A stretch of 64,000 nt of DNA from Perkinsus olseni (taxonomy: Eukaryota): the NCBI GenBank assembly GCA_013115125.1, contig JABANN010000088.1:1-64000 (forward strand), read 5' to 3'. The notes under the pieces are model-generated. The model saw only the letters and a program-made list of their open reading frames with translations. It had not been told where the DNA came from and made no database searches. The position numbers were made by a program, and so were the translations under genes. How positions within the stretch are numbered: position 1 is the stretch's first letter; each line of letters starts with the position of its first letter. Below, piece by piece: positions 2,588 to 55,657 of the stretch.

Positions 2588-5500
2588 ATGGTGGATGGTG
2601 GTGTTGATCTTGGTAGCAGCAGAGTTTACATTGATTTGGCCGGCATGCCTCCTCCTCCTCCTGACCAGGGTTCTACTTCCGTTAAACTCTTCGTGAGAGG
2701 TCTCCCCATCCATTACCCAGAGTCGGACTTGAGGGCTGTTTTTGAAGAGTACGTGCAAGGGGCGCCTGGTGTTGTGATCAATGTTATCGGATTGTACGAC
2801 CGTGCGATAGGCAATGTCCACTAGGGTGCACTGGGGCTCTACAACCATCCTGTGCCTGGGAGACTAGCCGCTGGTTTTCTACTCTCAGATCTCTGTAGTT
2901 GCTAGACTAGAATCGTGGCAAACTTCTCCATAGTCTGTCGTTGAACCAGTCATAAATCTCTACGGAGCCTTAAATACGCACTGGAGGGTCGGCAGCATCT
3001 ACGGGGGAGTACATGTTGATGAAACACTGTCGAGTTCATGATTTGGCGGGAGAAGCTTGCTCGGAATCATCGGAGACTAGTAGCGTTTTTGGTCGAAAAC
3101 TCCGTATTTGGGAGCGGCAGGTGGATGAGTTGTTAGCCCATTTTTACTTTCAGGTACGGTGTTGTAGAGGATGTCTTCATCTTGAGGGATAGGTCCACCA
3201 TGCAGAGTAGAGGTAGTTGTAGTAGTACTATAAATAATGGAAGTACTAGTATCGTCGTTGCAGGGATGGCGTTCGTACGGTTTCGAGATATCCCCTGTGG
3301 CATGACCGCCATCAAGGCGTTGAATGGTACTCAGCTACCGAGGAGCGACGTAATACCGGAGAGGCGTGGATCGCCGTTTAATGGTTCTGCTCATACTATT
3401 GCATACGGTACCTGATACCGTCGTTTTGGCAACTTGTGTCCGGTTCACTGACACCACTAATGATACCCCATCTGCTGGCCCCCTTCAGTCCCATATCCCC
3501 TTATCAGTACTCCTAGCCCAGGGTGAGGCGGAAAGGCTAGGGATGCCAGGAGAAGCGGTCCCTACCGGTAGTATGAGTAGCAGCCGTAGATCAATTACTA
3601 TGCTTCTTCTTGGCGGATGGACCGCTGTGTGATCGATAGAGGGAGTAGGCCTCGACACTACTTGACTTGTGATCTCGCGGTATCTCAGCTAGTCTGTTGC
3701 ATGCGAGTGGGTACTCATCGTATGAGCATCCGTGAGTACCCTCCCTGCAATCCCGCCGTCTAAGGCCTGGTGGTGTGGCCTTGGGCTTCCCTCGTGTCAG
3801 AGTTCGATTGGTTGTATGGTAGGTGGTGATACTAAGCTCTTCGTGTCGGGTCTGGGGCCAGCGACACAGGAGCCTGAACTGCGGACTATCTTCGAACCCT
3901 ACGGCCGTATCAATGAAATTCATGTGCCGGGACCACATGCCTTGTAAGAAGGGTCTTGCATACCGGCAGGGTCTCATACCGCACCTTTCCTACTCGCAGC
4001 TTTCGGACACTCCTGGCCAACACAGGTACGCTTTCGTTCGTTTCGCTGATAAAGAAGATGCATTGAAGGCGATTCGAGAAGTTAACGGCCGCGTGACGGT
4101 CGAGGGGTCACAGAGGCCACTGGAAGTGAAGGTGGCTGAGTCAAGGGCCGCCAAGGCAGACAGGAACTCCCATTACCATCAACATCACTATGCAGGAGGT
4201 AATCCCTACTGAAGTCACGGGACAGGTAGCTGCATGACAGGCGGATACGACCCAACTACATCATCCTCGGGTTATGGTGGACCTCCGCCGCCTCTGGCTG
4301 CTCCTGCTGCTGCTGCCTCGAGGGGTACGTCACGACCGATGTTCAAGGCAGGCATGGCGGCCGATCCAGCTAGTAGTAGGGGGTGAGCTTCACGAGTCTA
4401 TGGTCTTCGGGACGATGCTCTCAGCCACCACAATGGGTCGTATTGACGGCGCACTGTTCACGACTTCACCGTGTAGAGAGGTGTCCTGCTAGGTGCTGCT
4501 GGTCTGCGGTTGATGGCTGGCGCAGCTGCATCCTTACCTATCAATGGGACATCATCACCCCCGCCAGGGAGGCAGGACAGCCCAGCATCGAACGGGGTTA
4601 GAGGCCCCTCCACCACTCAGGCGCCGAGGACGGCTGGGGTTTGGACTGAGTAACTAAATCTGGGTATCATATCCCTTCTGGCGTTTGGATATTCTGACAC
4701 CTCTAGCTTAGAAATACTTGGCGATTCCTTCCAGGTACTTCACAATGGACGACACTCCTTACTACCACAACTCGCGCACCAACGAAGTTCAGTGGGAGAT
4801 GCCGGCAGAGTTCAGGAATCCCATCAACGTGCACACAGCGCCTCAGACTAAAGGTAAGGTCTGCTCAATTCAGAGGGGCTTCAGTCCTACTACTTCCCTA
4901 GACTCCTATTAAGCTGTGTTAACTCGGTGATTTTAACGACTATGCTTCCCGTACCCTGTTTAGTGGGATAGATGGTACGGCCGCTGGAAACCTTCAAAAT
5001 TTCCTCCTTGGATGGCCTTGTTTCCGCAGCGCCGGCGATTACCTTACTTGATAACCGTGGTGAATTTAGTTTCGAAATCAACTCGTGTTATTAGTAGTAG
5101 AAAGTTGCTGGTAGAGAGGCCTCGGACCTTGTTATTTTCATTGGTGAGTTTTAGTACCATCCAAACCTCAACTCAGGCAACTCTAGACAGGAGTAGGGGG
5201 TGAGGAGGTATGTCAGTGTTTGTGGTCTTCGTCCGTACACAGGTCCCCCTGGTGCTAACGTCTTTGTCTTCTCTGTACCGGATGCTTGGACCGAGAACGA
5301 CTTGCGAGATCACTTCTCAAGTTTCGGAAATATTGTTTCGGCGAAGGTAGCTGAGAAGGCGCTGTTCTAACATGCTCAGCTAGAGGTGTCAGAAAAGTGC
5401 CGAACCGCTGTCCTTAGGTGGTGGTTGATAAACATACTGGTCTATCGCGTGGCTATGGATTCATCTCCTACGATAATGCACAATCAGCAGGGCGCGCGGT

Positions 5501-5969
5501 AGTACTGCGGAGGGTGGGCTGCATGGGTCGACAAGTTTTCCGATGGTAAAATGAATGTAGTTCTCGAACAGTCAGACTGGACCAGTCGTAGCGCTGGACG
5601 GCCGAGTGGCAGTTGGCGCGTCTGAAAGTGGTAAATGAAAGCGCAATCTACGCGAGTGTTTATGAGAGGTGGGAGGAAGTGTTCAACGTGAGTACTCAGC
5701 GGACGACTAGGGCCACGTCGGATGGAAGTGTTAATGTCCATCACTGGAGCGGTAGTAGCAGGTATTCGCTCTTGAATTGGGGTATGGTATCTTTACCATC
5801 ACTTGCTGGTATACAACATGAAGTGGCGTTATTGGTTGCTCAGGTTGCCGAGATGAATGGCTTCGTAGCTGCCAATGGTCGACGTATCAAAGTGCAGATC
5901 AAGAAGGGAGAGGAGGGTGCTGCCGTTCAGAGGCCCGCCGGGGAGGGGAGACCAACTAGACCATATTGA
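2588..5969 (+). CDS. CELF/Bruno-like RNA-binding protein, RRM1-RRM2-WW-RRM3, multi-exon
   Basis: RRM1 KLFVRGLP...[10 protein letters not shown]2 KLFVSGLG...YAFVRF...[14 protein letters not shown] domain [31 protein letters not shown]3 [13 protein letters not shown]...[19 protein letters not shown]...MNGF...RRIKVQIK...RPY*. GT-AG introns restore the frame. Confidence 0.9.
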
Positions 5970-6026
5970 CAATAATTATTGCAATTCAATTGTTATACTA
6001 TTACTAATAGCTAGAGGTGTCAGAAT
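4691..6026. repeat. 17-18 nt element in three copies: antisense 4691-4708, sense 5378-5394 and 6009-6026
   Basis: attctgacacctctagct (4691-4708) is the exact reverse complement of agctagaggtgtcagaat (6009-6026) and matches agctagaggtgtcagaa (5378-5394) over 17 nt. Confidence 0.9.
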
Positions 6027-6045
6027 GTATCACAGGTGATGTTGT

Positions 6046-6046
<1 letters not shown>

Positions 6047-6088
<42 letters not shown>
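6047..6088. repeat. (GAT)14 microsatellite downstream of the CELF-like stop
   Basis: Read directly from the sequence. Confidence 0.95.
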
Positions 6089-6089
<1 letters not shown>

Positions 6090-6429
6090 GTCGTGATGTT
6101 CATGCCCATGCCTGTTGCTGATGTTACTGCTGTGGTGTCGTTGATGATGCGTCCATCTGGATGGATATCTTAGAATTAGTGTTCGAGCTGCGTTCCGGGT
6201 GTAATACGACGACGATGCATTCTCTCTACTACTACCTGAACGCTTGGTCTTATCAATAACAACAACAACATCGATAGCTGCTGTTAGAGAGCTTAAGCCG
6301 TCCATTAGTCCACTACTGTTGCGCTCTCAGTTCATAGGGCACAGGTGGCCGGGGTTGGGGCTGAGGAGGGAAATATGCTGACGCAGTATGATCTTCGAGT
6401 AGTTGTCGTGGTATCTAATTTGAGCCATT

Positions 6430-23300: not shown

Positions 23301-25715
23301 ATACAGGCTTCCTATCAGCTCGGGATGGACGAGGCGACAGAGTCTACCGGTGCACCATATGCGGCCCCTTCCCCGAGTACCCTTCACTGTCCGAGCTGGA
23401 AGCACACCTCTTCGACACCAATGCTGATGCAGCGCATAAGGAGCGATGGAAGCGATTCGAAAAGGAGATGATCACGGCCGGGAAGCCCCCAGACAGCAGT
23501 GCGTTGGTCGATTGGTGGCCTCCTTGAGGAGCTCCGAGTGATCGATATCTCAGGTACTATCGCACAGTGGAACGCGAGGTTCAACCATGCACGGCCGGGA
23601 TGCAAGATTCCTGTCACTAGTAACTCTAGGCGCTATACATGGGCGGTAAGGCTGGGTGGTGATTTGGGAGAGGGGAGGTATCGTCCTTAGACCCCACCTT
23701 ACCAAGCCACCCTTCGCCCCGTCAGCGTATGGGACCCTCCTTGTGATACGGCCCCTCGGCGGGAAGGGGCGATTCAACGGACTGCCAAGGCCAACGAGAA
23801 TACGCCTTGGCTTGCCCTCGCCCCTTCTGTCACTCGGTGAGTCGAACTCATCGACTGCATCGTCGAACCATTGCTTAGTTTTTAGGGAGAAGGGTCGACA
23901 GGACGTCTGCAATGCCTGGGATTTACGAAAGGACCGCGAATCGGAGAATGAAACTTTCTTGGGGCCTTCTCGTTTTACCTCACAAGTGACGTCTTCCATA
24001 ACGTAAATGCATAACGAATGCAGCGACTTGTGTTCACTGGAGTGGGGGCTCGAACCAGCACCCGAACAGCCATCACGTGCTTAGAAGCTACGCGCCAAGT
24101 TCCCCTCAGTAGTCTTATGGTCTTCGAAGTGTACGGTACCGTAGTTTGCCGCGGTCTATCGGTACTCTTGGGACAGCCGTGGTCCTCCCGTCATACAATG
24201 TGCCTCGAACCTTATCGTTGCCTTGTGATGCGCTCATCAGCCGTTACAAATAGGAGAATCTTAGGAGTGATAGGATTCCTCATCAGCTCTCAGCCGATGC
24301 ACGGAACCCATCACTCGCTGGTTCTTTGACTATGCGCCGCTCCCTGAATGGTCGACATCCCATTTTTCCTGCAGTGTTTTGATAGCCGCCTGCAGGATGT
24401 ATGCACCTCCTGGCTTCGAGCCTGCCCCCCCTCTTCCCCGGCCCCTCGACCCAACCCCTCTACCAGCACGGCCCCTCGACCCAACCCCTCTACCAGCACG
24501 GCCCCTCGACCCGACCCCCTTACCAGCACGGCCGCTACGTAGGAGCTGTGACAGAGCATATGACGAGCATCGCGGTGAGGAGCTGTCGAGGGTATTGTCA
24601 TTCTCACTGCCACTGCCTCAGATCCAGTGGCCCGCCGGCCCTTGCCTGTCGCACCTTATAGTCGGTACGCACCTCCCACCGAGACTAGGAAGGGCATTCC
24701 GTCCTCAGTGGAGAGGCGCAGATCTCAACCAGTGTATCGCCCTTGCAGCCCCCCAAGGGCCCGATCTCGTACTGGCCCAACGGGGGCTCTCATACCTCCT
24801 ATCGGGTATCGTGGTGTGGGGGAATGGCACTGCGGTGTGTGCGATGTGACAGCCTGGGACGAGGGAGCGTTCGAGCAGCACACCAGTGCGTTGATGATGC
24901 TGCTGCTGCTGCTGCTGCTGCTGCTGGCCTTGCTTTCACCCGTGCTGCTCTTGTAAGGTGGCAAGAAACACAAGAATGCGATGTGGTATTATGAAGAGGG
25001 TGCTGTGGCGGACGCGAAGCTTCCAGACTGTATCAAAGTAAGATCGAGTGTAGTGTGGTCGATGATGCCGACTGTTTCTTTCTAGTTATTACAGGATGGC
25101 TGCTACTACTGTGAATTCTGCGAAGCCAAGATGACCAGCCTCGGGTCAGTGCAAATGCATTTATCAGGGAAGAACCATATCAAGGTGAGTCAGTTCTGCT
25201 GCTCTTCTCCCATCAGGCCCGGGTATGTTTCAGGCCGAGAAGTACCTGGCAACCAATGCCCAGGGTATGCTTGTGCATGATACAGATTTCAGAGAACATT
25301 ACGTTCGCCAGTTTTACAAGGATGGTACACCAGCTGAGTTTGGCATCGTCCCGCGAGGTACGTCGCATTGTGGTCTCACCGTATCTTTTAGTCGGCCCAC
25401 TCGACCACAGGCATTGCACCTTCCCACTGGGCGGAGGTACTCCATTGTCCACTATGCGACCAGAAACCAGCGACGTGGGGCAGCTGGTCATCTCATTGTA
25501 GCAGCAAGCGACACATGTCGCGAGTGGAGGAGTTGAGCAGCCAATACTACTGCTATTGGATAAGACTCAACTCGGGCGGGGTGAGATCCACTAGGGTTGC
25601 ATTCATTGCTCACTGGTCAAGTGATCAGGTGGAGTACTTCTTCGATTTGGTTACTGGGTTATGGCAAACTCAGAGGCCTCTAGAGATGGATGTCCCGAGG
25701 GCAGTAGCTAACTAA
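20398..25715 (+). CDS. Pro/Gln-rich multi-zinc-finger protein (U1/matrin-type fingers, C-terminal WW-like motif); may be two genes
   Basis: P/Q-rich N-terminus; CHICG..CLKC..CDKPEC..CLHC; YRCTICGP...EAH; WHCGVCDVTAWDEGAFEQH..GKKH; YYCEFCEAKMTSLGSVQMHLSGKNH; YFFDLVTGLWQTQRP. Confidence 0.6.
24441..24533 (+). repeat. Coding 30-bp tandem repeat x3 (RPLDPTPLPA)
   Basis: gcccctcgacccaacccctctaccagcacg repeated three times with minor changes. Confidence 0.9.
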
Positions 25716-29285: not shown

Positions 29286-30710
29286 ATGGCCATGCGTTCG
29301 GCTTTCCTATTGACGATCTTCCTGTATGTTGTGGCTCTTGGTGAAGGTCTGTCCAACCGTACGCTGGTTATGATCTCTCATCGGGGTGTTCCACTCGACA
29401 TCCGTCAAGTACCTCTCATGGTGGCACAGGCCGCCGCTGCCTCTGGTGGAAGGGTGCGCTCCCTCACTCAAGAGGACCGTGACTGTGAACAATGCTTTGC
29501 ACAAGATGGGATGATCCATGACTTGACCGCGGTTGGGGTGCAAATTGTGGACTCTGAATGCTCGGCGAGTTACGGTCAAATAGTAAACTATCTTGAAAAG
29601 GCCAAAGATTTGACGGGCATCGCTTTTGTTTGCGAGCCCGACTTCAAGGTCTCCCGCAATCCGGTCCCCAGGCGAGTTCTGCCAAGCAAGGTCCTAGAAT
29701 TGAATTGTACAGGTGGCAATTCTGTGTTGGGTACCAACGACCCCAAGTCTTCCTGTCAGAGCAACCTCGAGGTTATCCGTATCGGTGCCGCCTGGGCAGT
29801 AGCTCGAGCAGCCAAGCAGAAGTTTAAGGACATCGTATTGGCCATCAGCGACACCGGGGTTGATATGACCCATCCGGATCTTGTCAACCAATTCTGGAAA
29901 GACCCAGCTGACGGCTCCATCGGGCACAACTTCATCACGAAGACTAGCGATGTGACTGACGACAATGGCCATGGTACTCACTGCGCCGGCAACGCGGCGG
30001 CCCAGACTAACAATACTCTTGGTATTGCTGGAGTGGCGAACGTCAACGGTCCAGCGCCCAATGTGAAGCTGATGATACTCAAGTTTCTGAATGCAGAAGG
30101 ATCCGGGTACTCCAGCGACGCATTGAGCGCTCTCAACTACGCGGTGGAACATGGAGCGGCGATATCCTCTCATTCTTACGGCGCATATTACGCGAGTCAG
30201 GTCTTCGAGGATGCGTTCAAGAACGCCGCCGCTGCCAACCATGTTGCGGTTGTTGCTGCTGGTAATGACGCGTCTACTTTGGACCAGGTACCCATGTATC
30301 CGTGCAGCTTTGCCGAGGACATCCCATCTATGCTCTGCGTTGCCGCCAGTACTTCGGCCACAAAAGATATCAAGCTGGCCTACTTCTCTAACGCTGGCAC
30401 CGTTACCAAGATTGCCGCTCCAGGTCTCGATATCAACTCGACATACCCTGGTGGATACGCTTCTTTGAGTGGCACATCGATGTCCACTCCTACAGTTGCT
30501 GGTGCTGCGGCCTTAGTGGCTACACTAGGTCCAAAAGGTCAGGAGATAACGGACGCTATTATCAAGTCTAAGACCGCTGGTATACCCAATGACTTCAACC
30601 TAGCTAATATCGGGGAATTGGACGCTCTGAACGCAGTCCACGTGGCCCTTGGACAACCTACTAGCCCGCCCAGGCCATCGAAGCATCCCGGAAGGGTCCG
30701 TGGCTTCTAG
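29286..30710 (+). CDS. Subtilisin-like serine protease (S8), copy 1, secreted, no hydrophobic C-tail
   Basis: Signal peptide; catalytic triad ISDTG, HGTHCAG, GTSMS; oxyanion-hole AAGN; intronless. Confidence 0.95.
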   Translation: MAMRSAFLLTIFLYVVALGEGLSNRTLVMISHRGVPLDIRQVPLMVAQAAAASGGRVRSLTQEDRDCEQCFAQDGMIHDLTAVGVQIVDSECSASYGQIVNYLEKAKDLTGIAFVCEPDFKVSRNPVPRRVLPSKVLELNCTGGNSVLGTNDPKSSCQSNLEVIRIGAAWAVARAAKQKFKDIVLAISDTGVDMTHPDLVNQFWKDPADGSIGHNFITKTSDVTDDNGHGTHCAGNAAAQTNNTLGIAGVANVNGPAPNVKLMILKFLNAEGSGYSSDALSALNYAVEHGAAISSHSYGAYYASQVFEDAFKNAAAANHVAVVAAGNDASTLDQVPMYPCSFAEDIPSMLCVAASTSATKDIKLAYFSNAGTVTKIAAPGLDINSTYPGGYASLSGTSMSTPTVAGAAALVATLGPKGQEITDAIIKSKTAGIPNDFNLANIGELDALNAVHVALGQPTSPPRPSKHPGRVRGF

Positions 30711-31390
30711 TATTCTTGAACTCTTATTATATTGGACCGACTCAGCGATGAACTCTTGACGGATTGGTCAGACACATTGATCGATGTCGCTCACATCATG
30801 TCGGTATTGAGTCCATTGTATTGAGCCTTGGACAGCCAAACAGCTGCCCAGGGTATATGATTAATCCGAGATCCCAATCTATTCCAAACTATTATACTCC
30901 TCCATTCAGGACGCATCTATTCCATAAGATGTGCTGTAAAAGCTGAAGCATGGCGTTCTTAGGAGGCCAGTTCTGAGTTCACTCTCATCGAATGAAGTAC
31001 ACCTTGCTATGAGTCCATTTAGCATAGTATTCAAAGCCTTCTACCGGGAGTAACGAGGCATTATCTCTACTTCCATGTCGCGTTCACATAAGTGATAGGG
31101 AGCTACGCGACAATCAACTGCCTGGGATCCAGAGGAAGGGAAGTTGAACCCCATTGCATGCACCGTATGCCCACGTGCTCGATCGGATACGCCTCGTGGA
31201 CAAAGGACCGACCGCTGATAGTCAGGGAGTCAATCTCCGAATAGATAACGGATGCTTTGGAAGTGAATGCGCATGTTGAAAAGTATGATGGGGTTCTGGA
31301 GAGTATCGCAGAAGAGGATTCTGATGAGGAAGCCACGCGAGCCATGAGAATTCAGTGGAACAGAGACAAATCCTCTGTTGTCAAGACAAT

Positions 31391-38662: not shown

Positions 38663-39738
38663 ATGTTGGCCACTCGGCTCTTCCGTAATGCGCCACGGCT
38701 TGGCAGTATGGTCCCCGAACTGCACTGTCTAACCCAAGGTCAGACTCAGCGGAGGGCATCTTTGCGGGCCCTGGCGGAGAGCAGTCGAGAGCCCATGACT
38801 ATGAGAGGCCTCAACCGGATAACAGTAGTAGCCTTCGTGTTCGGCCACTTCAGCGTACTCGTCGTCCTCATCACTCAGCCGTCTGTTGCTCCCAACCTCC
38901 ATGTATTGGCCCCGACGTTCATGCCGCGCGTGGAGATCTCAGAGTATCAAAACTATGATGCTCATACGCGAGTAGCCCGCGAGGAGGTTATACTGAGAGA
39001 AGGGATAGGATCGGTGTTCCTAGAAGCTAAGAATGGCTGCCCCGACAGTGCTACCTTCTGGTTCAGTAATAAGGGAAGTGTTCTCTCGTCGGGTCGACTT
39101 TCTCTCTGTCAGCCCTGTACTGCTGCTTCACTGGTATACTAGCTTGTGGATGCCTTATTACCAAAGCGCCAATCGTCTTCGAGAGGACCATGCCGTACCA
39201 GATCAAGTTCAACGCTCTGGCTCTGGTTTTCTGGTCCAGCTCCGACCTCGGTATTTGCCGCCTTGACTACTGCTCATGTTGGATCCTCACCGCTAGCTTT
39301 AGGAGTTCTCGAAGCCAGGCTCGGACCTCAAAGTCGGTTGATCACCACGGGAAGGATTCTCAGCACCTTCGGTTCGGTGGTCTATGCCACAGCATGTTGC
39401 GCGGTGAGTGCTTGCGTCGTGTCATGTCGTCACAGCGGTAGAGTCAGGTCGCGGAGTTTAAGCCCTTCTTGGCGTACAAGATGGTCATCGTCGGGGAGCT
39501 ATTTATGTCAGCCACTACGGTTCTAAGGTTTGCCATCAGGGCCCGCATAGACGATGTACTTCGATGTACTCCCTTCAGATGCGTTAGAGGTAGACAGATC
39601 CCCCTGTGGTCCGCAGTGATGCGCACGAGCTTCCTGTTGTACGGAGCCGTCACCAATACGTTGTGTCATATTAAGGGTAGATGGCTTGAGAGGCATGCAG
39701 AGGATCTCATCGTGGGCTATGTCCCAGAGTATGCTTGA
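38663..39738 (+). CDS. Multi-exon hypothetical membrane protein
   Basis: MLATRLFRNAPRL (presequence-like), hydrophobic segments, last exon ending LIVGYVPEYA*. Confidence 0.4.
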
Positions 39739-40164: not shown

Positions 40165-40320
40165 GCTGGTGTCTGCTACTACAGTTTTAAGGCCTTTCAT
40201 CAGAGCCTTCATAGGCCTCGGTGTAGTCGGTTAGAATGCGTGAAGGGTGAACGAATAACTCTATGGTCAGCAGTGATGCGCACGAGCGTCCTGTTACGCG
40301 CAGCCGCTGTTGATAGCGGC
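40165..40320 (+). pseudogene. Degenerate partial duplicate of the 3' exons of the 38663-39738 gene
   Basis: VSATTVLRPFIRA versus MSATTVLRFAIRA; tggtcagcagtgatgcgcacgagcgtcctgtt versus tggtccgcagtgatgcgcacgagcttcctgtt. Confidence 0.6.
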
Positions 40321-40920: not shown

Positions 40921-42375
40921 ATGCTCATACATTCTGCGTTCTTATTGACGGCCTTCATGTCCGTTATGCTTGGTGAAGGTCACTCCAATCATACGCTGGT
41001 TATGATCTCTCATCGTGGTGCCTCACTCAACATCCGTCAAGTACCTCTCATGGTGGCACAGGCCGCCGCTGCCTCTGGTGGAAGGGTGCGCTCCCTCACT
41101 CAAGAGGACCGTGACTGTGAACAATGCTTTGCACAAGATGGGATGATCCATGACTTGACCGCGGTTGGGGTCCAAATCGTGAACTCTAAATGCTCGGCGA
41201 GTTACGATCAAATTGTGAACTATTTAAAGAGGGCTGCCAGCATGCTGGGTATTGAGGCGAAATGTGAACCCGACTCTGAGGTATCTATCACACCGGCTTC
41301 CGGCCGGGTTTCGGCACGGGCGCGGTCACAAGCATCTTGCAGAGGTGCCAATTCTGTACTTGGCACCAATGACCCCGCGTCCTCATGCCAAAGCAACCTC
41401 GAAGTCATTCGGATGGGTGCTGCCTGGCGAGCGGTACGCGCAGCCAACCGGACGTTGAGAAACGTTGTACTGGCAGTCGTTGATAGCGGAGTTGACATGA
41501 CTCATCCGGACCTGGTCAACCAGTTCTGGAGGAATCCAAGAGACGGCTCTATCGGCCACAACTTCCTAGACGATAGTAGCAATGTTAACGATGAGAATGG
41601 TCATGGTACTCACTGTGCTGGTATAGCTGGTGCTCAGACTAACAACGGTATTGGTATCGCTGGGGTGGCGAATGTACAATTGATGATACTGAAGTTCATG
41701 GGTAGTGACGGCAAAGGCCCTCTCAGTGGCGCATTGAGTGCCCTGGACTACGCAGTCAGGAACGGCGCCACAGTGTCCTCGCATTCCTACGGCTCGACTT
41801 TTCGAAGTCCGATCTTCGAGGCAGCGATCGCGAACGCCGATGCTGTAGGTCATGTTGTGGTTGCTGCTGCTGGCAATGATGGCCTCAATCTAGACCAGAC
41901 CCCAACCTACCCTTGTTCCTTCGCACGAACAATACCATCTACGCTCTGTGTTGCTGCCAGTACCTCCGCCACAACTTCAGCTCTGTCTGTTGCGTCATTC
42001 TCGAACGTCGGGTCCGCGGTTAACATCGCCGCTCCCGGCGTGAATATAAACTCAACGTACCTCTCCGGCTCGTACGCCCCTCTCAGTGGTACATCGATGT
42101 CCACTCCTCACGTTGCCGGTGTTGCCGCCTTGCTGGCTACCCTTGGTCTTGATGGCCAGAGAATCACCGACTCAATCACGCGGTCTCGGACGGCCGCTCT
42201 CAGCAACAGGTTGGGTGCTAGTAGCCCAGGAGAACTGGATGCTCTCAACGCCGTCAATATCGGTCTAGGACAGCCCACCAGCCCGCCAAGGCCTATCTCT
42301 AGCGCCCCCGCCAGGGTCCCGGGTATCGTCTCGGTGTGGGGTGTCGCACTCTTACTGGCTCTAGTGTGTTTATAG
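40921..42375 (+). CDS. Subtilisin-like serine protease (S8), copy 3, putative GPI/TM tail
   Basis: Signal peptide; VVDSG, HGTHCAG, GTSMST; tail IVSVWGVALLLALVCL*; closest paralog of copy 1. Confidence 0.95.
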   Translation: MLIHSAFLLTAFMSVMLGEGHSNHTLVMISHRGASLNIRQVPLMVAQAAAASGGRVRSLTQEDRDCEQCFAQDGMIHDLTAVGVQIVNSKCSASYDQIVNYLKRAASMLGIEAKCEPDSEVSITPASGRVSARARSQASCRGANSVLGTNDPASSCQSNLEVIRMGAAWRAVRAANRTLRNVVLAVVDSGVDMTHPDLVNQFWRNPRDGSIGHNFLDDSSNVNDENGHGTHCAGIAGAQTNNGIGIAGVANVQLMILKFMGSDGKGPLSGALSALDYAVRNGATVSSHSYGSTFRSPIFEAAIANADAVGHVVVAAAGNDGLNLDQTPTYPCSFARTIPSTLCVAASTSATTSALSVASFSNVGSAVNIAAPGVNINSTYLSGSYAPLSGTSMSTPHVAGVAALLATLGLDGQRITDSITRSRTAALSNRLGASSPGELDALNAVNIGLGQPTSPPRPISSAPARVPGIVSVWGVALLLALVCL

Positions 42376-53600: not shown

Positions 53601-55657
53601 CCAGATGAAGACTCCCCGGCACTCGCCTCCCTCGAACGCCTACAGCCTGCCACTTCAGTTTGTGGTCTAGCTCCTTAACTTCCTCCTTCAACTTCACCTT
53701 CTCGGTATCCTCCTCATTGCTTTTGTCCGCCTGTTGCGTCTGCAGTAGACCAGCTTCGGCACTGTTAGGCTATAGAGACTCCCGTGCTCACCTCCTCAAC
53801 CAGGGCCTTGAAGGCTAGGTCCTTACATACTAGCTTGCCCTCGAGGTCCTCAACAACAGCCGAGATCCTATCCACCACCATCATCAGTAACGCCTATTAT
53901 TATTCTAACACTTGTACCTCTGTATCTCCGCGTCCCTTGCCAGCAGTACCACTTTGTGCTCACCCTCCCTCTCAGCAGCCTTGGCCCGCTCCTGCTCAAC
54001 TTCACGCCGTACCGCACTGCGAAGATTCCAATACCCAATCTTTTCCACCAGCATGGTCGGTTCACCTAATCTCCTGCTCCATCTCAAGAACCCTCAAGCC
54101 ATGGCTTTTCTCCGCCTCCTTCCTCTCACTTTGGTACTTCTCATGCAAGGCACTGAGCTCAGATCGATGCCGTTCGGAATCCGCTAAGGCATCACGAGCT
54201 AGCTCCTCGTAACTGCCAAGATACGCTCCGCACAGAGAAGGATACTCCCACAGGATACCTAGCATCCTTCAACCTCAGCCGCTCCTTGTACTCGGCTAGC
54301 TCGACATGAACAGCATTATGACTGAGCTCTTTCTTCAATCCCTGTGGAGATGCGGTCCCTCGGAGACACCCAGTGTTCGACCACACCTCAATCTGAGCGT
54401 GAAGAGCTTCCGTTCGCTCAGCCTCCTCCTTGCGTAGCGCTGCTATCGTCCTCTCCCGCTCGGCAACTTCCTCTCCCAGCCGATGTATTCTAAGCACACA
54501 TACCGACCCAACTCCCGTCGACTGCAAGTAAGCCGACTCCGATACGTCACCCTACTCAGCGTCTCGAGCCCTGATCTCCATCTTCTTCTCCTCTCCCAAC
54601 TCCGTAGTCTCCTTCTTGGCCGACACAATCTCGTCCCGGCACTGGCCGATAGTGACCTCCAACTACAACGAGGCAAAGAGTGCCCACCACAGCGTTGAGT
54701 GGTGTAGCCGTGGGACGCGTTGGTTCCATGCTAGCGGATACGAAGGAGGCATCCCCACTGCACTGCGTCTGGCTGCACCTTGCTGATGGTTTCTTCCTTA
54801 TCCTCAATGCACTTCATCAATCTTTCCAGCTCTGTACGAGCGGCATCTCCTTCCGTCCGACGATGGTCTTTCTCTATGGACAAGTCTCGCTGACTGCTTT
54901 CCTCCAGGGACTTGTACCTAAACCCGTCTTATCGGATACGACGCTCAAGCGTGATCGAGAGCAGCCCAACTACCGTTCATTCGCTAGCTTGGCCTCTTTC
55001 CTGTGCATCTCATAGGCAACAGCAAGCTCCTTCTCCTGTCATACAATCAATCAACCTCATCACATTCTGCGTACTCTAGCCCGACCTTGGTCTTCAACGC
55101 CTCCCAGGCGCCTTGGCGACCTTGCTGAGCCACCTCGACCTGTTCCCTCAGCCACTTGCCCTCCTCTATCATACGGGATAGCCTGAGCAACGCAGTGGAG
55201 TGACTCCCTTCCGAGTCCTCCTACCCAGTGTTGGCACTGTCTAGCTGGGCCCTCAACTGCCACTGTATGCTCGTTGCCTGACAAGAGCCCCTCCCACAGT
55301 CACGATCCACTACTATAGCCGCGTGCCACGAACCTCCGACAGCTTCTTCTCTGCCTCCTTCCGCACGGCATTGAGCCTGGACACATACGTCTGACGCTGA
55401 TCCTTGAGAGAGCTCCCTATCCGTCCCATAGCGTAGATCATAGCCTAATCAAAGCCACGGGAAATACTCAAAACGATGACAAACAGCGGAAGTAGGCACC
55501 ATACGTTGCAGTGTTTATCCGAGAGGACATCCGTATTGCCGTCAATTGGTGGCAGGCGAGTAGTATGGCCGGAGTCACCGGCAGGAGGGTCCTCCATGCC
55601 CCTACTGCTGCTACTGAGAGAGCTCCTCGCAGAGGGGGTATCAGCAGTAAATGGCAT
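50656..55657 (-). CDS. Large intron-rich coiled-coil protein
   Basis: Many short E/K/R/L-rich heptad exons (VEALKAEIQRLNKVIG, LHDEMDKIAAAFEEERQGLERQINQ), ending ...HEDDHGHE*. Confidence 0.75.

What the first reader, a model, noticed from the sequence alone, without database searches (positions are those of the whole stretch)
4650..6028. One antisense and two sense copies of a 17-18 nt element inside a CELF-like gene: candidate docker/selector or back-splicing switch
Seen: attctgacacctctagct (4691-4708) sits in the intron that splits the WW domain (4650-4734). It is perfectly complementary to agctagaggtgtcagaa in the intron splitting RRM3 (5378-5394) and to agctagaggtgtcagaat just past the stop (6009-6026; extendable by a G-U and an A-U pair). 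All copies are non-coding and confined to this gene; I saw no other copy in the window. Known: competing intronic RNA pairings control exon choice (Dscam docker/selector), inverted intronic repeats promote circRNA formation, and CELF-family proteins often autoregulate their own splicing. Inference: mutually exclusive pairing could loop out the WW-end plus RRM3-start exons, or the whole 3' end, giving isoforms with or without WW/RRM3, NMD targets or circles.
Basis: partly seen in the sequence, partly recalled or inferred. Interest (0 to 1): 0.78.

Follow-up and report, generated by a model that had tools for sequence, protein, structure and literature searches.

The report
28S rRNA 17-mer copied thrice in gene
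The three short repeats are real, but they are exact copies of a universally conserved piece of the large ribosomal RNA, placed in two introns and the 3' tail of an RNA-binding-protein gene of a Perkinsus parasite, where they may pair to tune splicing, though only the normal transcript was seen.

Summary
Observation confirmed. AGCTAGAGGTGTCAGAA occurs exactly three times in the window: 4692-4708 antisense, 5378-5394 and 6009-6025 sense. None of 100 shuffles gave three matches, and there are no copies with 1-3 mismatches. RNA-type contigs of three runs place the copies in an 85-nt intron, a 71-nt intron and the 3'UTR of a 3xRRM+WW gene. Its best protein match is Perkinsus olseni.

New fact: the 17-mer equals eukaryotic LSU rRNA at Rfam model positions 2795-2811, the helix-88 3' strand plus junction. 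It has rRNA flanks in 87 of 96 metagenome loci. Copy 2 matches the rRNA over 21 nt. So the element is not private to this gene.

The pairing is thermodynamically strong. The two duplexes score -38.6 and -39.9 kcal/mol, against -29.4 for the best of 168 other windows. In the minimum-energy fold the intron-8 copy pairs with the 3'UTR copy, and the intron-10 copy sits in a local hairpin. Only the fully spliced form appears in contigs: no exon skipping, no back-splice.

Best reading (0.35): a cis RNA-pairing module built from a captured rRNA fragment, overlapping branch-site-like motifs. Rivals: neutral repair by-product; snoRNA- or rRNA-factor mimicry. Orthologue conservation and genome-wide copy number could not be tested.

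The parts
2645..5969 (+). Coding part of the host gene: 3 RRMs plus a WW domain between RRM2 and RRM3, 12 exons in the part seen. The start codon at 2645 is tentative.
   Evidence: 11 GT..AG joints in contigs of X7, X8 and X9. The spliced frame is open to the stop at 5967-5969. Pfam RRM_1 and WW hit the exons. Orthologues: P. olseni 100%, P. marinus 86%, P. chesapeaki 76% on the RRM2 exon. The P. marinus orthologue has 3 RRM_1 stretches and WW at 26.3 bits against a cut-off of 26.9.
4650..4734 (+). Intron 8 (85 nt), splitting the WW domain; holds the antisense copy.
   Evidence: Joint 4649>4735 in X7, X8 and X9. It does not fold as a hairpin: z +0.67, 148 of 200 shuffles fold as well.
4691..4708 (-). 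Copy 1 (A'). rRNA-sense lies on the minus strand, so the pre-mRNA carries the antisense. It is an 18-nt unit shared with copy 3. It contains CUGAC 38 nt upstream of the 3' splice site.
   Evidence: Duplex energy with copy 2 is -38.6 and with copy 3 -39.9 kcal/mol.
4735..4853 (+). Exon 9 (119 nt), the rest of the WW domain.
5243..5346 (+). Exon 10 (104 nt), the start of RRM3. Exons 9+10 total 223 nt, so skipping them would shift the frame.
   Evidence: the arithmetic is from those coordinates.
5347..5417 (+). Intron 10 (71 nt), splitting RRM3; holds sense copy 2.
   Evidence: Joint in X7, X8 and X9; GT/AG checked.
5358..5401 (+). Local hairpin in intron 10. The 5' arm is an imperfect antisense stretch with UUCUAAC (48 nt from the 3' splice site), the loop is AGCUA, and the 3' arm is the rest of copy 2 plus AAGUGCC.
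   Evidence: Region 5335-5425 has z -2.73; 1 of 200 shuffles folds as well. The hairpin alone is -19.7 kcal/mol. It is kept in the 1461-nt MFE fold.
5378..5398 (+). Copy 2 (S1): the 17-mer plus AAGT, giving 21 nt identical to LSU rRNA.
   Evidence: The blast match 5378-5398 hits 73 loci. Rfam consensus.
6009..6026 (+). Copy 3 (S2) in the 3'UTR, 40 nt after the stop. It pairs with copy 1 in the MFE fold (20 bp, 4689-4708 with 6009-6028).
   Evidence: It is present in RNA-type contigs covering 5843-6031 with 0 other letters (X8, X9).
6037..6091 (+). (GAT)n microsatellite directly after copy 3.

Best explanation
The three elements are copies of a 17-nt piece of 28S rRNA (helix 88 3' strand plus the following junction) that now sit in non-coding parts of a conserved 3xRRM+WW RNA-binding-protein gene of Perkinsus olseni.

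Most likely they act in cis as an RNA-pairing module. The antisense copy in intron 8 carries that intron's branch-site-like CUGAC. It can form an 18-20 bp duplex with the sense copy in intron 10 or with the one in the 3'UTR. The intron-10 copy is otherwise held in a local hairpin with an imperfect antisense stretch that carries that intron's branch-site-like UUCUAAC. Which helix forms would slow or redirect removal of introns 8 and 10. Retention gives an in-frame stop; skipping of exons 9-10 gives a frameshift. Either would set the yield of productive mRNA, plausibly as feedback on this RNA-binding protein.

The rRNA identity is then the origin of the module: a captured rRNA fragment, later copied locally.

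Shown: the copies, their placement, the rRNA identity and the pairing energies. Inferred: the branch-site roles, any effect on splicing, the feedback and the origin.
For: - Three exact copies in both orientations within 1.4 kb and none elsewhere in 64 kb; 0 of 100 shuffles reach 3.
- All copies are non-coding in the pre-mRNA.
- Duplex energies are -38.6 and -39.9 kcal/mol. The 168 other windows of the gene average -14.9 (sd 4.1), with -29.4 as the best.
- The MFE of 4600-6060 pairs 4689-4708 with 6009-6028 and keeps copy 2 in the hairpin 5358-5401.
- The intron-10 region folds better than 199 of 200 shuffles.
- Both intronic copies end 23-26 nt from the 3' splice site. CTRAC motifs lie at 38 and 48 nt, inside the antisense stretches.
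- Exons 9+10 total 223 nt, so skipping is unproductive. Read in the exon-8 frame (frame, sequence), intron 8 reaches a TGA inside copy 1.
- No other isolated exact repeat of 17 nt or more exists in the window, so such repeats are not routine here.
Against: - Only the canonical joints were listed in contigs of X7, X8 and X9, with no skipping and no back-splice. Contigs drop rare forms.
- Cis pairing needs complementarity only. It does not explain why all three copies still equal the rRNA at 17 of 17 positions, unless they are young.
- An 85-nt intron is probably removed before a partner 690-1300 nt downstream is transcribed (general knowledge).
- Only 4 of 12 introns examined carry a YTRAY motif at all, 3 of them as CTRAC, so the branch-site reading is weak.
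- The hairpin z-score comes from one of three regions tested.
- No conservation data.
Confidence: 0.35

Rival explanations
1. Neutral by-product of DNA repair. A short rRNA/rDNA-derived filler was captured once (copy 2, 21 nt). It was then copied locally, in direct and inverted orientation, by template switching during break repair. The copies persist because they lie in tolerant non-coding sequence and have no function.
For: - The copies are exactly identical to each other and to rRNA, with nothing at 1-3 mismatches. That looks young.
- All copies are in introns or the UTR.
- Copies 1 and 3 share an 18th base (T) that the rRNA lacks, as if one was copied from the other.
- The imperfect palindrome around AGCT in intron 10 resembles snap-back synthesis.
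- Only one isoform was seen.
Against: - It needs three independent fixed events in 1.4 kb of one gene, all with nearly the same 17-nt boundaries.
- No other isolated exact repeat of 17 nt or more was found in the other 62 kb, and no other rRNA fragment of 17 nt or more from conserved rRNA parts.
- The hairpin extends 6 bp beyond the 17-mer and uses G-U pairs, which fits RNA-level selection better than a fresh copy.
Confidence: 0.25
2. Trans-acting rRNA mimicry. The sense copies imitate the 28S segment that is recognised by a box C/D snoRNA of the snR48/SnoR1 type, or by a protein that binds this rRNA stretch (possibly the gene's own product). The antisense copy imitates the guide. Splicing or stability of this mRNA would then be coupled to snoRNP or ribosome-biogenesis status.
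For: - 17 of 17 identity to the Rfam LSU consensus in all copies, and 21 nt in copy 2. Base-pairing with a fixed trans RNA would constrain every position.
- Yeast snR48 methylates G2791 and G2793 in helix 88 of domain V (passages, PMC5389607). The pair is conserved in Arabidopsis as G2792/G2794, guided by SnoR1 (passages, PMC8053127).
- The 17-mer contains helix 88's 3' strand and a G-A-G-G run. By my inference that run holds those sites, and the 17-mer roughly equals a guide footprint.
- snoRNAs that also pair with pre-mRNAs are known (SNORD115, SNORD27; recalled).
Against: - No snoRNA was identified: Rfam finds nothing in the window, and intron 8 lacks C and D boxes.
- The mapping of the yeast sites onto the 17-mer is inferred from numbering, not shown.
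- snoRNA targeting does not explain the antisense copy.
- Nothing shows that this protein binds rRNA.
Confidence: 0.2
3. Mutually exclusive docker/selector looping chooses between isoforms lacking the WW end plus RRM3 start or lacking the 3' end, or the inverted intronic repeats drive back-splicing of exons 9-10 into a circular RNA.
For: One antisense and two sense elements have nearly equal duplex energies. The inverted repeats lie in the introns that flank exons 9-10.
Against: - There is no cluster of alternative exons. Exons 9 and 10 are unrelated and are constitutive in contigs of 3 runs.
- No back-splice joint was listed.
- The arms are 17-20 nt, shorter than repeats usually found to drive circles (recalled).
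- The linear product lacking exons 9-10 would be frameshifted, so these are not domain-swap isoforms.
Confidence: 0.1
4. Substrate for double-strand-specific processing. The 18-20 bp duplex, or the intron-10 hairpin, is cut by an RNase III/Dicer-like enzyme, giving small RNAs or destroying the transcript. Alternatively, the 17-bp sites act at DNA level as orientation-free protein-binding sites.
For: Perfect 18-20 bp helices are possible. Dicer-like proteins are reported for P. marinus by BLAST in a review (passage, PMC6027434). Sites in both orientations suit a DNA-binding factor.
Against: The hairpin stem is only 17 bp with bulges. Intron 8 is not a hairpin. No small-RNA data were seen. Protein sites rarely need 17 of 17 identity.
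Confidence: 0.05

Closest known systems
rRNA-like or rRNA-shared short motifs in pre-mRNAs. Sources: Mauro and Edelman 1997 (recalled); rRNA 'pyknons', Rigoutsos et al. 2025, PMC12515603 (abstract and outline seen).
   Same: Short exact stretches shared between rRNA and introns or UTRs of protein-coding genes, in either orientation. They are proposed as contact points for RNA-RNA duplexes.
   Different: Those motifs are described as organism-specific and spread over thousands of genes. Here a universally conserved core segment of 28S occurs three times in one gene, arranged so that the copies pair with each other. The genome-wide copy number here is unknown.
Competing intronic RNA pairings (Dscam docking/selector; recalled).
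   Same: One element is complementary to two alternatives in the same pre-mRNA, with near-equal stability.
   Different: There is no array of mutually exclusive exons, one partner lies in the 3'UTR, only one isoform was seen, and conservation is untested.
Inverted intronic repeats promoting back-splicing (recalled).
   Same: Reverse-complementary arms lie in the introns that flank exons 9-10.
   Different: The arms are only 17-20 nt, and no back-splice joint appears in the contigs.
Dual-use snoRNA guides that pair with both rRNA and a pre-mRNA (SNORD27/E2F7, SNORD115/5-HT2C; recalled), and the snR48/SnoR1 target in helix 88 (PMC5389607, PMC8053127; passages).
   Same: A pre-mRNA segment identical to a snoRNA's rRNA target would be bound by the same guide. 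The 17-mer covers the helix-88 3' strand.
   Different: No snoRNA was found here. The identity is perfect and longer than in the known cases. There is an extra antisense copy.
Ribosomal-protein autoregulation by rRNA mimicry in the protein's own pre-mRNA (yeast RPL30; recalled).
   Same: An rRNA look-alike in the protein's own transcript controls splicing.
   Different: The known mimics are structural rather than 17-nt sequence copies, and the host protein here is not a ribosomal protein.

Membership tests
Eukaryotic LSU rRNA (segment or pseudogene fragment) | Sequence identity to the LSU consensus | tested here: met
   The 17-mer equals RF02543 consensus positions 2795-2811. In locus L005 it lies inside a full LSU hit of 2868 bits. 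87 of 96 metagenome loci carrying it have the rRNA right flank. Copy 2 matches 21 nt.
Eukaryotic LSU rRNA (segment or pseudogene fragment) | rRNA similarity continuing into the flanks (a real rDNA piece) | tested here: not met
   The whole window has 0 Rfam matches at gathering score. Blast against 96 rDNA-bearing loci extends no copy beyond 19-23 nt.
Docking-site/selector system | One docking element complementary to several selectors in one pre-mRNA | tested here: met
Docking-site/selector system | Selectors each precede one member of a cluster of mutually exclusive exons | tested here: not met
   All exons are joined in one order in contigs of X7, X8 and X9. One 'selector' is in the 3'UTR.
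Docking-site/selector system | Conservation or covariation in related species | not testable with these tools
Inverted-repeat-driven circular RNA | A back-splice junction joining 5346 to 4735 | tested here: inconclusive
   It is not among the joints listed for 3 RNA-type runs. Contigs drop rare forms, and no RNase-R data were used.
Intronic box C/D snoRNA (intron 8) | C box RUGAUGA near the 5' end, D box CUGA near the 3' end, and a guide ending just 5' of D or D' | tested here: not met
   There is no UGAUGA in 4650-4734. The only CUGA lies inside the antisense stretch, at its 5' part. No Rfam hit.
Mirtron / pre-miRNA-like hairpin intron | The intron folds as one long hairpin | tested here: not met
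   Intron 8: z +0.67, 148 of 200 shuffles fold as well. Intron 10 has a 17-bp bulged stem, shorter than usual precursors (recalled).
CELF/Bruno-like RNA-binding proteins (host gene) | Two N-terminal RRMs, a long linker and a C-terminal RRM | tested here: met
   Pfam RRM_1 hits the exons. The P. marinus orthologue has 3 RRM_1 stretches.
CELF/Bruno-like RNA-binding proteins (host gene) | Orthology to CELF proteins proper | not tested
   The only named relatives are Perkinsus proteins, one called 'DAZ-associated protein, putative' by its source. The WW domain in the linker is not a CELF feature (recalled).

The most novel reading that the evidence does not exclude
This parasite RNA-binding-protein gene carries a sense/antisense rRNA-mimic switch. 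The sense copies are bound by the factor that recognises helix 88 of 28S rRNA, either a snR48/SnoR1-type snoRNP or the protein itself. The antisense copy competes for them. Splicing of the gene would then report on ribosome-biogenesis status. That would be a sequence-level rRNA-mimicry feedback in a non-ribosomal gene.
Probability: 0.12. Interest if true: 0.8.

Novelty: new variant of a known kind. Interest (0 to 1): 0.45.

Why it matters
If functional, this would be a compact, testable case of long-range RNA pairing controlling splicing in a perkinsozoan. In that group gene control is thought to be largely post-transcriptional. It would also be an example of a regulatory element recruited from rRNA sequence.

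There are practical points as well. A repeat that looks private to one gene was in fact a universal rRNA segment, so rRNA should be checked before calling short repeats gene-specific. Such segments also attract rRNA reads and contigs onto the gene: loose ends appear at all three copies.

Tried and rejected
- Whole-genome k-mer count: no genome is held.
- Mirtron for intron 8: rejected.
- snoRNA in intron 8: rejected, no boxes and no Rfam hit.
- Other rRNA fragments in the window: the best were 16 nt at 54174-54189 (17 loci) and 17 nt at 31033-31049 (3 loci). Both are isolated matches without C/D boxes nearby, and by my rough estimate such matches are about as frequent as chance would give.
- Degenerate copies: none above chance.
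- Non-rRNA metagenome hits L032, L036 and L070: two lie inside long ORFs, and none resembles the window. I treat them as chance hits in a very large collection. 6 further loci of the 96 have an rRNA flank on one side only (inserts or chimeras).
- Four loose-end strings were sought in the window: 0 of 4 found.
- Loose ends at the repeats. In X7 and X8 the same foreign flank ends ...GATGAGA before the 17-mer, consistent with the organism's own 28S (the consensus has GAAGCUAG), but unproven. X10 shows a contig in which the 17-mer is followed by non-rRNA sequence. That hints at another genomic copy but could not be followed up, because one search used the single read-laying run.
- Variant positions of X10 across the elements were not shown: 144 of 184 rows were cut, so there is no polymorphism test.
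- Literature: the exact 17-mer in four spellings is in 0 papers. The Perkinsus small-RNA and genome searches gave nothing on this. Supplements were not consulted.
- Parts of the gene without contig cover were not used as evidence.
Full report
**1. The observation**

AGCTAGAGGTGTCAGAA occurs exactly three times in the 64-kb window: 4692-4708 on the minus strand, and 5378-5394 and 6009-6025 on the plus strand. The chance expectation is 0.04, and 0 of 100 shuffles gave three matches. One search reports the inverted pairs as 18 nt at 100% (4691-4708 with 6009-6026) and 20 nt at 95% (4692-4711 with 5375-5394). There are no copies with 1-3 mismatches. At 4 mismatches there are 3 hits (1.35 expected) and at 5 mismatches 13 (11.65 expected). 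The flanks of the three copies are unrelated. No other isolated exact repeat of 17 nt or more exists in the window. The remaining long repeats are a tandem array, two paralogous segments 11.6 kb apart, and an 18-mer whose flanks are also similar.

**2. The host gene**

Contigs of three RNA-type runs from three studies (X7, X8, X9) give 11 GT..AG joints. After the stated cut shifts, the relevant introns and exons are:

| Feature | Coordinates | Length |
|---|---|---|
| Intron 8 | 4650-4734 | 85 nt |
| Exon 9 | 4735-4853 | 119 nt |
| Intron 9 | 4854-5242 | 389 nt |
| Exon 10 | 5243-5346 | 104 nt |
| Intron 10 | 5347-5417 | 71 nt |
| Intron 11 | 5499-5843 | 345 nt |

The spliced frame is open to the stop at 5967-5969. 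Pfam finds RRM_1 and WW on the exons. The P. marinus orthologue has three RRM_1 stretches and a WW at 26.3 bits against a cut-off of 26.9.

The RRM2 exon is 100% identical to a Perkinsus olseni protein, 86% to P. marinus and 76% to P. chesapeaki. The C-terminal half is nearly identical in all three.

Transcripts of the next gene begin at 6401 with the extra letters TCTTGGCTCA. With the following AG, this equals the 3' end of the P. marinus spliced leader ACCGTAGCCATCTTGGCTCAAG (passages of PMC3101222 and PMC9399869).

Copy 1 is in the intron that splits the WW domain, copy 2 in the intron that splits RRM3, and copy 3 is 40 nt past the stop.

**3. What the element is**

In 87 of the 96 the element is followed by AAGTTACCACAGGGAT (up to 3 mismatches). 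Most of these also share the left flank ...GGCCTATCGATCCTTTAG plus about 15 variable bases. In locus L005 the match lies inside a full-length hit to the Rfam family LSU_rRNA_eukarya (2868 bits).

A local alignment places the 17-mer at model positions 2795-2811. AGCUAG closes a hairpin helix as its 3' strand. GGUGUCAGAA is an unpaired junction that runs into AAGUUACCACAGGGAUAAC. The consensus equals the window's 17-mer at all 17 positions.

Copy 2 continues the rRNA match by AAGT, giving 21 nt (73 loci). Copies 1 and 3 instead share a T at that place. Copies 2 and 3 are therefore rRNA-sense in the pre-mRNA, and copy 1 is antisense to 28S rRNA.

By my estimate, a repeated 17-mer matching a conserved rRNA stretch by chance has odds of about 10^-6.

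The window has no Rfam hit at all and no other convincing rRNA fragment. These are isolated 17-21 nt pieces, not an rDNA remnant.

Of the 9 loci without the rRNA right flank, 6 have an rRNA flank on one side. The other 3 (L032, L036, L070) are unrelated contexts, two of them inside long ORFs, and I treat them as chance.

**4. Is it elsewhere in this genome?**

It must be in every rDNA unit. Beyond that I could only see loose ends.

- In X7 and X8 the same foreign flank precedes the 17-mer. This is compatible with the organism's own 28S.
- In DNA run X10 one contig has the 17-mer followed by sequence that is not rRNA. This hints at at least one more non-rRNA copy.

Genome-wide counting was impossible.

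**5. Pairing and structure**

- Duplex energies of the intron-8 region with the two sense regions are -38.6 and -39.9 kcal/mol. The 168 other 41-nt windows of the gene average -14.9 (sd 4.1), with -29.4 as the best.
- In the minimum-energy fold of 4600-6060, 4689-4708 pairs with 6009-6028 (20 bp). Copy 2 stays in a local hairpin at 5358-5401.
- That hairpin has 17 bp, two G-U pairs and small bulges, and scores -19.7 kcal/mol. It pairs copy 2 and the next 7 bases with an imperfect antisense stretch just upstream.
- The region 5335-5425 folds better than 199 of 200 shuffles (z -2.73). The regions around copies 1 and 3 do not (z +0.13 and +0.26).
- Intron 8 is not a hairpin.
- The antisense stretches contain CUGAC (38 nt from the 3' splice site of intron 8) and UUCUAAC (48 nt, intron 10). 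These resemble branch-site consensus sequences. However, only 4 of the 12 introns examined have a YTRAY motif at all, 3 of them as CTRAC.
- Both intronic copies end 23-26 nt from the 3' splice site.

**6. Isoforms**

The joints listed for X7, X8 and X9 are only the canonical ones. Nothing skips exons 9-10 and nothing joins 5346 back to 4735. Separate contigs do cover the long introns 4, 9 and 11 at lower depth, which could be retention or pre-mRNA. Contigs drop rare variants, so this is weak negative evidence.

Skipping of exons 9+10 (223 nt) would shift the frame. Read in the exon-8 frame (frame, sequence), a retained intron 8 reaches a TGA inside the element.

**7. Explanations**

(a) Cis pairing module built from a captured rRNA fragment, acting on removal of introns 8 and 10: 0.35. 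It accounts for both orientations, the clustering in one gene, the non-coding positions near branch-site-like motifs, and the extra hairpin. It does not by itself explain the unbroken identity to rRNA.

(b) Neutral repair by-product: 0.25. It explains the identity through youth, and the T shared by copies 1 and 3. It needs three fixed events in 1.4 kb with the same boundaries, while the rest of the window shows none.

(c) Trans mimicry of the 28S segment: 0.20. Yeast snR48 methylates G2791 and G2793 in helix 88 (PMC5389607, passage and section 10). Arabidopsis keeps the pair as G2792/G2794, guided by SnoR1 (PMC8053127, passages). The 17-mer contains helix 88's 3' strand and a GAGG run. By my inference from the numbering that run holds these sites, which would make the 17-mer about one guide footprint. 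No snoRNA was found, and the antisense copy is left unexplained.

(e) RNase III/Dicer-type processing or DNA-level sites: 0.05. Dicer-like proteins in P. marinus are mentioned in a review passage (PMC6027434).

**8. Comparison with known systems**

The nearest described phenomenon is short rRNA-identical or rRNA-complementary motifs in pre-mRNAs. Sources are Mauro and Edelman 1997 (recalled) and the rRNA pyknons of PMC12515603 (abstract and outline only). This case differs in using a universal core segment, in having three copies in one gene, and in an arrangement that lets the copies pair with one another.

It fails the defining tests for a snoRNA, a mirtron, an rDNA remnant and a Dscam-type selector array (see the membership table). 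The exact string is in none of the papers searched.

**9. Verdict**

- The main new fact is the 28S identity.
- Whether the module is functional hinges on orthologous introns and on raw-read RNA data, neither of which I could reach.
- Interest is moderate: 0.45.

Noticed in passing
window 6398-6402 and 6401 onward: The downstream gene's transcripts start at 6401 with non-genomic TCTTGGCTCA in X7 and X8. This matches the 3' end of the Perkinsus spliced leader, so there is a trans-splice acceptor (tag) at about 6400-6402. Contigs of the upstream gene's 3'UTR end at about 6303-6305 in X8 and X9.
   Followed up: partly
window 3567-3822, 4854-5242, 5499-5843: RNA-type runs hold separate contigs lying within or across the long introns 4, 9 and 11. 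Examples are 4826-5270 in X7 and X8, and 5471-5808/5817 in X7 and X9, at roughly a tenth to a fifth of exon depth. This could be intron retention, pre-mRNA or DNA carry-over.
   Followed up: no
P0001 versus window 5499-5843: The public P. olseni protein model of 855 aa fuses an unrelated N-terminal membrane-like part to this gene. It also reads extra residues (VVLRW) at intron 11. The RNA contigs and the P. marinus orthologue support the shorter splice used here.
   Followed up: partly
window 3450-3462 and 4694-4701: CTGACACC occurs 38 nt upstream of the 3' splice site in both intron 3 and intron 8. It may be a preferred branch-site context in this organism.
   Followed up: no
window 29360-29575 and 40992-41207: A 142-nt exact direct repeat, plus further 18-24-nt exact pieces, lies at a constant spacing of 11,632 nt. 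This looks like tandem paralogous genes.
   Followed up: no
window 39613-39630 and 40270-40287: An 18-nt exact direct repeat 657 nt apart sits within flanks that are also similar, so this is a duplicated segment rather than an isolated motif.
   Followed up: partly
window 24439-24517: A tandem array with a 30-nt period (CGGCCCCTCGACCC...), probably a coding repeat.
   Followed up: no
window 5725-5834 and 6339-6379 (X10 contigs): A DNA run of the same organism label differs at 184 places in 5001 bases. It also carries a 108-nt deletion in intron 11 and a 39-nt deletion between the genes, so divergent haplotypes or strains exist that could be used to test conservation of the elements.
   Followed up: no
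loci L003, L012, L013, L029, L034, L045, L050, L059, L061, L067, L075, L080, L081, L093: In many environmental rDNA contigs the LSU sequence breaks off, in most of them within or just after GGGAT downstream of the 17-mer, and continues with unrelated sequence. These may be rDNA introns or insertions near the peptidyl-transferase stretch, or assembly chimeras.
   Followed up: no
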